DNA of 48,951 bases from an uncultured Methanosarcinales archaeon (GTDB lineage: Archaea; Nanobdellota; Nanobdellia; Woesearchaeales; GW2011-AR4). A program made the position numbers and the translations under genes. Location of the stretch: positions 12,892 to 61,842 of the forward strand of contig CAZMBY010000004.1 of NCBI GenBank assembly GCA_964564925.1. Direction: 5' to 3'. Position 1 is the first letter of the stretch, and the number at the start of each line of letters is the position of its first letter. The notes beneath the pieces are model-generated. The model was not told the DNA's origin, ran no database searches, and saw only the letters and a list, made by a program, of their open reading frames with translations. Positions 23,886 through 48,951 of this stretch are shown here, piece by piece.

Positions 23886-23946
23886 ATTATTTTTGTAATA
23901 GGTATATTTAGGAAGGTTAATATAGGAGCCTAAACTCAGTAGCGAT

Positions 23947-24147
23947 ATGAGACTAACAATAGTTCTAGAGCCACAAGAAGAAGGCGGATTTACAGCTTAC
24001 GTACCCTCTTTGCATGGCTGCATCTCGCAAGGGGATACGAAAGAAGAGGCCATTAAAAATATTAAAGAAGCGATTGAATTATATCTGGAACCAGACACGA
24101 ACGAACTTATTGAGTTTAGAGGAGAAAAAGTTATTGTTATAGTATGA
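23947..24147 (+). CDS. hicB: HicB-family antitoxin (short form without a DNA-binding domain)
   Basis: GGFTAYVPSLHGCISQGDTKEEAIKNIKEAIELYL. Confidence 0.9.
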   Translation: MRLTIVLEPQEEGGFTAYVPSLHGCISQGDTKEEAIKNIKEAIELYLEPDTNELIEFRGEKVIVIV

Positions 24148-24522
24148 AAATTCCTCTTATTTCTGGAATTGAGGCTATTAAGAGGCTAAAGAGAGCAGGA
24201 TTTATTGCTACAAGACAGAAAGGATCCCATGTAAGACTGGAAAAATATACAGGTGAGAAAACAATTAAGATTACAGTTCCTATTCATGCTGAGTTAAAGA
24301 AAGGAACTGTCAAAAACCACCCATCACAGATGGATGGCATGAAGCGAAGCTTTATTTAGGAGCACATTGATGGTGGTTTTTGAGCACGCTCGGAATTCCA
24401 CGATAAGATTTGTGGTTGAGTCTACGAAACCACCTATCATAGATAAGGTGGAATTCCGACGTTTAAACAGAATAATCAAAGATGCAGGATTAACATTGGA
24501 AGAATTTGGTGGGTTGAAATGA
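24144..24522 (+). pseudogene. hicA: HicA-family toxin gene interrupted by a 154-bp insertion
   Basis: 24144-24308 encodes MKIPLISG...RQKGSHVRL...ELKKGT. Removing 24309-24462 joins it in frame to LNRIIKDAGLTLEEFGGLK* (24463-24522), giving a normal 74-aa HicA. Confidence 0.88.
24309..24462 (-). mobile_element. Non-autonomous palindromic element, copy 1 (PATE/IS200-IS605-like)
   Basis: Two 12-bp inverted-repeat modules (TCAAAAACCACC/GGTGGTTTTTGA and TCGGAATTCCAC/GTGGAATTCCGA). No TSD. Lies 3' of TTTAA on the minus strand and is homologous to 25821-25962. Confidence 0.8.
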
Positions 24523-24535
24523 ATTTTCGCACGGC

Positions 24536-25759: not shown

Positions 25760-25820
25760 AACCCAGAGTATGGATATGCTTATAAAAATATATCGCAGCT
25801 TATAATGAAAAATTATTTAA

Positions 25821-25962
25821 ACATCGGAATTCCACCATCTCTACGAGTGGTGGTCTCATAAACTCGACCACAAATCTTATTGTGGAATTCCGAGTGTGCT
25901 CAAAAACCACGCAATGTAATAGTATATTAATGCCACCGTGTCTATGACCGGTGGTTTTTGAC
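25821..25962 (+). mobile_element. Non-autonomous palindromic element, copy 2 (142 bp)
   Basis: TTTAA|ACATCGGAATTCCAC...GTGGAATTCCGA GTGTGC TCAAAAACCAC...GTGGTTTTTGAC|AG, the same architecture as 24309-24462 in the opposite orientation. Confidence 0.8.
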
Positions 25963-25998
25963 AGAATAAGCCATATTTTTAATATTACAGGTGGGGGA

Positions 25999-31663: not shown

Positions 31664-31717
31664 GCTGTACTCACGGGCAAATATGATTGAGCAATTGTTG
31701 CCCGTTCGTAATACAAA

Positions 31718-31755
31718 GAAAACCTTACGGTTTTCGAGTGCTCAAAAATCTTTGA
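31718..31755 (+). repeat. Minimal double-hairpin relative of the 24309/25821 element
   Basis: GAAAACC-TTAC-GGTTTTC GAGTGC TCAAAAATC-TTT-GATTTTTGAC AAG, with the same linker and right end as copy 2. Confidence 0.6.
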
Positions 31756-31789
31756 TTTTTGACAAGTAAAGGCAATAATTTATTCTCAA

Positions 31790-48842: not shown

Positions 48843-48951
48843 GGGCTCGTAGTCTAGCGGCTATGACGTCACCCTTACAAGCCGCAGGTTAAATTTTATT
48901 TAACCATTTTACGAAAGGTGAAGGTCACCAGTTCGAATCTGGTCGGGCCCA
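48843..48951 (+). tRNA. trnV: tRNA-Val(TAC) with a ~36-nt anticodon-loop intron (about 48880-48915)
   Basis: Acceptor GGGCTCG/CGGGCCC-A, D arm GTC/GAC, anticodon stem TCACC/GGTGA with CT-TAC-A, and T arm ACCAG-TTCGAAT-CTGGT. The intron contains the hairpin GGTTAAA/TTTAACC. Confidence 0.9.

What the first reader, a model, noticed from the sequence alone, without database searches (positions are those of the whole stretch)
24144..24522. hicA toxin split cleanly by the structured element, with precise excision restoring a 74-aa toxin
Seen: deleting 24309-24462 gives ...ELKKGT-LNRIIKDAGLTLEEFGGLK* in frame, with no scar and no other lesions, and hicB is intact. As it stands the gene yields a 71-aa product with 16 foreign C-terminal residues. 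Established: HUH (Y1) transposases of IS200/IS605 excise precisely and reseal the donor site. Inference: either simple recent inactivation, or a reversible switch in which excision reactivates a toxin.
Basis: partly seen in the sequence, partly recalled or inferred. Interest (0 to 1): 0.62.

Follow-up and report, generated by a model that had tools for sequence, protein, structure and literature searches.

The report
Small mobile element disrupts hicA toxin
A 154-base hairpin-rich mobile element has landed, without any scar, inside the toxin gene of a HicB/HicA toxin-antitoxin pair in a groundwater Woesearchaeota genome; it looks like an ordinary, recent gene knock-out, and nothing shows that it works as a reversible switch.

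Summary
Removing 154 nt (24308-24461, or 24309-24462 because of a 1-nt T ambiguity) rebuilds a 74-aa HicA. That protein matches Pfam HicA_toxin end to end and is 99% identical to intact HicA proteins in other Woesearchaeota. Their DNA is colinear with the window and breaks exactly at GGAAC|TTTAAAC.

The insert belongs to a repeat family of 75-199 nt. I found 25 copies in DPANN archaeal MAGs and metagenomes. They have no target duplication and no terminal inverted repeats. Two stem-closed modules show compensatory changes, and TTTNAA abuts one end in 21 of 25 copies. This anatomy is PATE-like (IS200/IS605-type), but no transposase partner was found.

The cut falls inside the invariant KKGT|L motif, in the C-terminal helix, so the 71-aa product is probably dead. 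hicA shows no decay (dN/dS about 0.03) and the interrupted allele is a singleton among 15 billion proteins, so the insertion is recent and private.

Empty-site contigs occur in all four groundwater runs, but only at 90-95% identity and in other genomic contexts. None appears at 99%. The reversible-switch idea is possible in principle but has no support.

The parts
23947..24147 (+). hicB antitoxin gene. It is 66 aa, has the N-terminal HicB-like domain only, and overlaps hicA by 4 nt (ATGA). The ORF is intact but carries a private P23H change.
   Evidence: Pfam PF15919 at 41.3 bits. Alignment with six relatives. Singleton protein cluster.
24144..24307 (+). 5' fragment of hicA, codons 1-55. The last base of codon 55 is the ambiguous T at 24308. 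The fragment holds the invariant catalytic-region motif G27-S28-H29.
   Evidence: Colinear with intact relatives up to 24308.
24144..24359 (+). The ORF as it now stands: 71 aa, made of 55 HicA residues plus 16 element-encoded residues.
   Evidence: Singleton cluster on one contig.
24308..24461 (+). Copy A of the 154-nt non-autonomous element (equivalently 24309-24462). Module 1 runs from about 24308 to 24387 (TGTCAAAAACCAC ... GTGGTTTTTGAGCA). Module 2 runs from about 24388 to 24461 (CGCTCGGAATTCCAC ... GGTGGAATTCCGACG).
   Evidence: The boundaries come from the empty sites of relatives and from 23 full-length copies. Folding. Covariation.
24462..24467 (.). TTTAAA target hexamer abutting the module-2 end. 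It is present, uninterrupted, in every intact relative hicA (GGA ACT TTA AAY).
   Evidence: TTTNAA sits at this side in 21 of 25 copies.
24462..24522 (+). 3' fragment of hicA, codons 56-74 plus the stop codon. It encodes most of helix alpha2 and the C-terminal helix.
25822..25963 (-). Copy B of the same element family, 142 nt. It lies in the divergent spacer between the radical SAM gene and the GINS gene. Its TTTAAA is at 25816-25821.
   Evidence: The same spacer is only 34 nt in the relative L030.

Best explanation
A hicBA toxin-antitoxin cassette sits between the S-layer gene and the radical SAM gene in this Woesearchaeota lineage. Its toxin gene was then hit by a 154-nt non-autonomous, palindrome-rich mobile element.

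Shown: the element inserted at a TTTAAA inside codons T55-L56-N57. It made no target duplication and removed no bases. This shifts the frame and cuts off most of helix alpha2 and the C-terminal helix of the alpha-beta-beta-beta-alpha HicA fold.

Inferred: the 71-aa product is inactive, leaving an orphan HicB.

The anatomy of the element fits single-strand 'peel-and-paste' transposition by a Y1 HUH transposase supplied in trans, that is, a PATE of the IS200/IS605 type. It has no TIR and no TSD, it has stem-loops at both ends, and one specific end always abuts TTTNAA. This mechanism is inferred and not shown. Under it, scarless excision is chemically possible, so reversion could happen. Nothing indicates that reversion is used or selected as a switch. 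The event is a recent, private knock-out of a dispensable toxin gene.
For: Precision of the insertion and rebuilt full-length HicA.

Position of the cut. K52 K53 G54 T55 L56 R58 I59 are invariant in 25 homologues. The AlphaFold model of the 99%-identical P0002 (pLDDT 89.7) places helix 53-62 and helix 67-71 after the three strands. PDB entry 1WHZ aligns over residues 10-72.

Recent and private event. dN/dS for hicA is 0.024-0.068 against intact relatives, the same as among the intact genes. The interrupted HicA is a singleton cluster on one contig. The nearest syntenic relatives, L030 and L031, have no hicBA at this locus.

Mobile-element family. There are 25 copies in the window, 4 metagenome contigs and 19 MAG contigs of Woesearchaeota, Aenigmatarchaeota and other DPANN bins. 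The ends are conserved, TGTCAAAAACCAC and GGAATTCCGAYG. TTTNAA flanks one side in 21 of 25 copies, and the other flank has no consensus and is never duplicated. Nine base pairs show compensatory changes. Summed word depth of the core is 500-2200, against 5-8 for the unique flanks in the same runs.

Most copies are intergenic. Only 2 of 23 full-length copies are in genes, as expected if genic insertions are harmful.

No same-strain empty allele. The joint 24307>24462 is seen at 90% likeness in four runs but not at 99%.

Literature. PATEs are defined as lacking ITRs and target duplications and having near-terminal palindromes and a 4-6-bp targeting sequence (PMC3119063). TnpA makes scarless donor joints (PMC10055086).
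Against: No TnpA or TnpB was found, and no full-length element with these ends. In 31 loci no solo ends lie 0.5-2 kb apart. In four metagenomes every contig crosses the centre of the element without a break.

The closing stems reach the very first and last nucleotide. In IS608, from my own knowledge, linkers separate the hairpins from the cleavage sites.

The variable N of TTTNAA shows no covarying 'guide' position in the element (inspection).

Inactivity of the truncated HicA is inferred from the fold and was not tested.

Only assembled contigs were available, and these drop rare variants, so low-frequency excision in the population cannot be excluded.

Confidence: 0.72

Rival explanations
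1. Reversible switch. A Y1 TnpA elsewhere in the genome excises the element precisely under some condition, for example stress. This restores an active HicA, so hicA::element acts as a conditional toxin gene.
For: A precise, scarless insertion is the kind that IS200/IS605 TnpA can reverse; a lacZ- to lacZ+ switch by TnpA excision has been shown experimentally (PMC10055086). hicA has no second lesion. hicB is kept as an ORF.
Against: No empty allele appears at 99% identity in four runs. The empty contigs differ by 4-5% and continue into other contexts. No transposase was found. The lack of decay is explained equally well by recency, since the allele is a singleton. Where TnpB is present, it cuts donor joints and so opposes reversion. 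HicB carries a private P23H change in a conserved motif, so a revertant might be poorly neutralised and would then be selected against.
Confidence: 0.08
2. Removal at the RNA level. The element is cut out of the hicBA transcript and the exons are joined, either by self-cleavage or by the archaeal splicing machinery. Insertions in genes would then be silent and HicA would still be made.
For: The consensus fold pairs both element ends with the centre (T1:A82, G2:C81 | C83:G159, R84:Y158). This places the two exon ends side by side. Both genic insertions, in hicA and in the polymerase of L024, are in the same sense orientation. A copy of the element is present in a metatranscriptome contig. Archaeal IS605-derived RNAs are processed and circularised by unknown routes (PMC12558985).
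Against: There is no Rfam match, including introns and ribozymes, even at E = 10. By inspection there is no bulge-helix-bulge motif at the junctions. Group I rules (U before the 5' site, G as last intron base) would leave one U too many. The two strands fold equally well (p = 0.26), which points to DNA palindromes and not to a strand-specific RNA. Of 23 full-length copies, 21 avoid genes. No RNA data exist for this organism.
Confidence: 0.03
3. Assembly chimera. The repeat was wrongly joined into hicA when the MAG was assembled.
For: The element is a high-copy repeat in these samples, and contigs fragment around it.
Against: Independent Logan contigs at 100% identity span the left junction (X1 24252-24419, X4 24295-24402) and the right junction (X1 24438-24491). 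The window's hicA has its own synonymous variants on both sides of the insert.
Confidence: 0.02
4. The truncated HicA is still functional, or has a new function, with the element-encoded 16-residue tail.
For: The N-terminal fragment keeps the invariant G-S-H motif and shows no nonsynonymous change.
Against: It lacks 7 of the 10 residues of helix 53-62 and the whole last helix of a 74-residue single-domain fold. The lost segment holds invariant residues. The allele is a singleton.
Confidence: 0.04

Closest known systems
PATEs (palindrome-associated transposable elements), the non-autonomous derivatives of IS200/IS605 elements first catalogued in Haloquadratum walsbyi (PMC3119063)
   Same: Too short to encode a protein. 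No terminal inverted repeats and no target duplication. Palindromes at both ends. A short specific sequence always abuts one end. Copies vary in their cores while the termini are conserved.
   Different: No IS605-type transposon with matching ends was found. The two modules are nested three-way palindromes. Their closing stems include the terminal nucleotides and pair with a conserved central linker. The hosts are DPANN archaea.
IS605 / IS608 / ISDra2 'peel-and-paste' transposition by Y1 HUH TnpA (PMC10055086; PMC3597680)
   Same: Insertion next to an AT-rich penta- or hexanucleotide; from my own knowledge, IS605 itself uses TTTAA. There is no TSD, and the donor site is exactly the uninterrupted sequence seen in relatives.
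   Different: The transposase, the ssDNA intermediate and the guide-to-cleavage-site pairing were not observed here. The spacing between hairpin and cleavage site differs from IS608.
Insertional inactivation of toxin-antitoxin toxin genes by IS elements or MITEs (general knowledge)
   Same: The toxin gene is disrupted while the antitoxin ORF remains, which is a common path of TA decay.
   Different: Here the event can be resolved to the nucleotide, because near-identical intact cassettes exist in relatives.
IStrons: IS605/IS607-family transposons fused to group I introns that splice out of host transcripts (bioRxiv 10.1101/2023.11.20.567912)
   Same: A transposon inside a gene whose removal would restore the reading frame.
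   Different: The element is only 154 nt, has no intron match in Rfam, and its junction bases do not fit group I rules. The IStron comparison is a concept only and is not supported here.
REP / REPIN elements mobilised by RAYT (Y1 HUH relatives)
   Same: High-copy, mostly intergenic palindromic units arranged as doublets.
   Different: The two modules here are in tandem and differ from each other; they are not an inverted doublet. RAYTs are known from bacteria (my own knowledge), and none was sought or found here.

Membership tests
HicA toxin (PF07927), for the gene once the insert is removed | Full-length match to the HicA_toxin profile | tested here: met
   66.2 bits over profile positions 3-58 of 58 after joining the flanks. 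As it stands, 53 bits over positions 3-51.
HicA toxin (PF07927), for the gene once the insert is removed | Conserved G-S-H catalytic-region motif and an alpha-beta-beta-beta-alpha (dsRBD-like) fold | tested here: met
   G27 S28 H29 are invariant in 25 homologues. The AlphaFold model has H8-17, E21-26, E29-35, E40-46 and H53-62. PDB entries 1WHZ and 5YRZ (HicA) match.
HicA toxin (PF07927), for the gene once the insert is removed | Adjacent hicB antitoxin gene | tested here: met
   hicB at 23947-24147 matches PF15919 and overlaps hicA by 4 nt.
HicA toxin (PF07927), for the gene once the insert is removed | RNase activity or growth arrest that HicB neutralises | not testable with these tools
   This needs expression assays.
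PATE / IS200-IS605-type non-autonomous element | No target-site duplication | tested here: met
   The empty sites of six relatives, joined with the window flanks, leave no repeated or missing base. No flank repeats are seen in 25 copies.
PATE / IS200-IS605-type non-autonomous element | No terminal inverted repeats; palindromes at or near both ends | tested here: met
   The ends TGTCAAAAACCAC and GGAATTCCGAYG are not inverted copies of each other. Each closes its own stem.
PATE / IS200-IS605-type non-autonomous element | A specific 4-6-nt target always abuts the same end | tested here: met
   TTTNAA lies next to the module-2 end in 21 of 25 copies, 13 of them TTTAAA. The other flank has no consensus.
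PATE / IS200-IS605-type non-autonomous element | Too short to encode a transposase | tested here: met
   75-199 nt.
PATE / IS200-IS605-type non-autonomous element | Ends shared with an IS200/IS605 element encoding TnpA (Y1 HUH) and/or TnpB in the same or related genomes | tested here: inconclusive
   None was found in 31 fetched loci, and no contig is interrupted at the centre of the element in four metagenomes.
PATE / IS200-IS605-type non-autonomous element | Base pairing between the cleavage site and an internal guide, with a strand-specific ssDNA intermediate | tested here: inconclusive
   No element position covaries with the N of TTTNAA (inspection). There is no strand bias in folding energy. 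The intermediate cannot be observed with these tools.
Archaeal BHB intron or self-splicing intron | A bulge-helix-bulge motif at the two junctions, or a match to a group I / group II intron model | tested here: not met
   No Rfam match at gathering score or up to E = 10. The junction sequences do not form a 3-nt bulge / 4-bp helix / 3-nt bulge arrangement (inspection).

The most novel reading that the evidence does not exclude
The element is removed from hicA on demand. Removal could be at the DNA level, by a regulated Y1 transposase, or at the RNA level, helped by a fold that places both junctions side by side. A dormant toxin gene would then be re-armed. Alternatively, outward transcripts from the element, which are antisense to hicA and lie next to a TTTAAA motif, could guide a TnpB-type nuclease against incoming intact hicBA cassettes.
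Probability: 0.05. Interest if true: 0.8.

Novelty: new member of a known kind. Interest (0 to 1): 0.27.

Why it matters
This is a clean, nucleotide-resolved case of a scarless insertion by a small hairpin element in a DPANN archaeon, with the ancestral empty site preserved in relatives. It fixes the element's exact boundaries (TGTC...CGAYG) and its target (TTTNAA). That is useful for annotating a repeat family that is abundant in groundwater DPANN genomes and would otherwise be read as 'structured intergenic RNA'. For toxin-antitoxin biology it is an ordinary example of toxin loss that leaves an orphan antitoxin. If regulated excision were shown, it would be a new kind of conditional toxin, but nothing here points that way.

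Tried and rejected

2. The first genome contigs pattern was too strict and found nothing. A shorter core pattern found 19 loci. The viral contig scan found nothing.

3. Search for a full-length element. No solo ends lie 0.5-2 kb apart in 31 loci. The L027 relic at 1655-1720 is a truncated copy next to ordinary genes. A match to the end motif at window 39397 lies inside a coding gene and is chance. Laying contigs on the centre of the element showed no interruption.

4. Same-strain empty allele. The joint seen at 90% likeness disappears at 99%. The one loose end at 24462 carries AAGGGAAC, the relatives' variant.

5. RNA-level evidence. Only one metatranscriptome run holds any related sequence. 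That is another copy of the element, not hicA.

6. Strand of a putative functional RNA. Folding energies of the two strands do not differ across 23 copies.

7. Rfam searches at gathering score and at permissive thresholds found nothing relevant.

8. Group I and BHB splicing rules were checked by eye against the junctions and rejected.

9. A literature search for IS605/TnpB in DPANN archaea gave nothing specific.

Full report
WHAT IS THERE

The region holds a two-gene hicB-hicA cassette. hicB runs from 23947 to 24147 and hicA starts at 24144. As it stands, hicA is open only to 24359. That gives 71 aa: 55 HicA residues plus 16 unrelated ones. Removing 154 nt gives a 74-aa protein. The joined protein matches Pfam HicA_toxin over the whole profile (positions 3-58 of 58, 66.2 bits). 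The interrupted ORF loses the last seven profile positions (53 bits).

A search of 5.8 billion protein clusters found hundreds of 74-aa HicA proteins. The best are 99% identical, and several are labelled Candidatus Woesearchaeota. I fetched six of their loci, L005-L010. At the DNA level they are 86-88% identical to the window over the cassette. The alignment stops at 24308 and resumes at 24462 with a one-base overlap. All of them read GGAAC TTTAAA at that point. So the insertion is exact to the nucleotide, with no duplication and no loss.

IS THE INSERTION REAL?

Contigs that Logan assembled independently from four public groundwater runs match the window at 100% across the left junction (X1 24252-24419, X4 24295-24402) and the right junction (X1 24438-24491). 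The hicA halves also carry the window's own synonymous variants. An assembly chimera is unlikely.

WHAT THE INSERT IS

A second copy lies at 25822-25963 on the minus strand, between the radical SAM and GINS genes. Pattern scans found four metagenome contigs and 19 contigs of DPANN MAGs: Woesearchaeota, Aenigmatarchaeota and bins labelled Methanosarcinales. There were none in viral contigs.

The 23 full-length copies are 75-199 nt long. They share:
- the left end TGTCAAAAACCAC;
- a central GGTTTTTGAGCACRCTCGGAATTCCA;
- the right end GGAATTCCGAYG.

The right end abuts TTTNAA in 21 of 25 copies (TTTAAA in 13).

The element folds far better than shuffled sequence (z = -5.8 as RNA, -6.2 as DNA). 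RNAalifold on 16 copies predicts 41 pairs, 9 of them with compensatory double changes. One of these is R84:Y158, a pair next to the very end of the element. The fold consists of two stem-closed modules. The first and last nucleotides pair with the conserved centre (T1:A82, G2:C81 | C83:G159).

The two strands fold equally well (14 of 23 copies favour the plus strand, p = 0.26). Rfam has no match. In the four groundwater runs the summed word depth of the core is 500-2200, against 5-8 for the unique flanks. The family is therefore abundant in these communities.

MECHANISM

Taken together, the features are: no TSD, no TIR, end-proximal palindromes, one end always next to a short AT-rich target, and too short to code. 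This is the definition of PATEs, the non-autonomous relatives of IS200/IS605 elements (PMC3119063). TnpA of that family excises a single strand and reseals the donor without a scar (PMC10055086).

I therefore think the element most likely moves by a Y1 HUH enzyme supplied in trans. I put this at about 0.55-0.6, because the defining partner was not found. No solo ends occur 0.5-2 kb apart in 31 loci. Every contig in four metagenomes crosses the element's centre without a break. The stems that reach the terminal nucleotides also differ from IS608 as I know it.

CONSEQUENCE FOR HicA

The cut lies between T55 and L56, inside a run of invariant residues (K52 K53 G54 T55 L56 R58 I59). An AlphaFold model of the 99%-identical P0002 (pLDDT 89.7) gives helix 8-17, strands 21-26, 29-35 and 40-46, helix 53-62 and helix 67-71. 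PDB entry 1WHZ aligns over residues 10-72. The interrupted product keeps the G-S-H motif but loses most of helix 53-62 and all of the last helix. Loss of function is the likely outcome. This is an inference.

AGE AND HISTORY

- hicA dN/dS against intact relatives is 0.024-0.068, no higher than among the intact genes themselves. No relaxation is visible.
- The interrupted HicA and the window's HicB variant are each singleton clusters on a single contig among about 15 billion proteins.
- The closest genomes sharing the surrounding synteny (radical SAM protein 84% identical; L030 and L031) have no hicBA between the S-layer and radical SAM genes.
- Near-identical hicBA cassettes sit in at least four other genomic contexts.

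So a mobile hicBA cassette arrived at this locus and was then hit by the element, or it arrived already hit. Either way the event is recent.

THE SWITCH IDEA

A joint skipping exactly 154 nt (24307>24462) is present in all four runs at 90% likeness, at depth 13-94 against 4-8 for the window's own contigs. Those contigs differ from the window by about 4-5%, and they do not continue into the window's downstream sequence. At 99% likeness the joint is gone. The single loose end at 24462 carries the relatives' AAGGGAAC variant. These are other hicBA cassettes, not revertants.

No RNA data exist for the organism. The one metatranscriptome hit is a different copy of the element.

Of 23 full-length copies, only two lie in genes: this one, and a 75-nt minimal copy inserted in frame, without a stop codon, in the IMS domain of a Y-family polymerase (L024). 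The rest are intergenic. This suggests that genic insertions are normally harmful and are not silently removed.

Reversion is chemically plausible if a TnpA exists. A selected switch, or RNA-level removal, has no support. Because only contigs could be examined, rare excision is not excluded.

VERDICT

The IS200/IS605 attribution is reasonable but unproven. The switch is speculative. This is a new member of a known kind of event and of modest interest. The more interesting object is the element family itself, which is the subject of a separate finding.

Noticed in passing
L005 2605-3100; L006 140-635; L007 44-543; L008 5753-6244; window 23903-24526: The hicBA cassette behaves as a discrete unit of about 620 bp. 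Homology of 86-94% nt among loci starts about 40 nt before hicB and ends a few nt after the hicA stop, and the surrounding genes all differ (glycosyltransferases, DnaJ and others). In L005-L008 the cassette is bracketed on both sides by a direct repeat, ATTAGACGAAAnTTTT. The window copy lacks this repeat.
   Followed up: partly
L030 3478-7538; L031 4001-9214: The closest syntenic relatives (radical SAM protein 84% identical) have no hicBA between the S-layer and radical SAM genes. The cassette is therefore an acquisition in the window's lineage.
   Followed up: yes
window 24013-24015 (HicB codon 23): HicB has His where all six relatives have Pro, in the SLPGC motif. The HicB protein is a singleton cluster. 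This may reflect relaxed constraint on an orphan antitoxin.
   Followed up: partly
L024 77-151 (minus strand): A 75-nt minimal copy of the same element sits in frame and without a stop codon inside the IMS domain of a Y-family DNA polymerase gene. It adds 25 residues just before the SVDEAYLD motif. Removing it restores a contiguous Pfam match. It has the same sense orientation as the hicA insertion.
   Followed up: partly
window 25760-25998: Copy B fills most of the divergent spacer between the radical SAM and GINS genes. The spacer is 239 nt here and 34 nt in L030, so copy B may affect both promoters.
   Followed up: no
window 24308-24461 and alignment A2: The first and last nucleotides of the element pair with the conserved central linker. 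An end-to-end joined (circular) form would therefore be an almost continuous rod with two branched arms. Each module also ends in a hairpin followed by T5 on one strand or the other, which is terminator-like in archaea.
   Followed up: partly
window 31673-31764 (minus strand): A short sequence, TGTCAAAAATCAAAGATTTTTGAGCAC followed by a second small hairpin, looks like a collapsed relative of the element.
   Followed up: no
L027 1655-1720: A truncated copy keeps only the inner part and right end of module 2. It still abuts TTTAAA and lies between an RNA cyclase-like gene and a surface protein gene.
   Followed up: partly
run X21 (soil metatranscriptome), laid on window 24373-24467: A 235-nt contig at depth 36 in an RNA library holds a 96%-identical module 2 with a different module 1. 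This points to transcription of some copies, or to DNA carry-over.
   Followed up: no
window 48843-48951: A tRNA gene spans 109 nt for a 71-position model, so it contains an intron, as expected for an archaeon.
   Followed up: no
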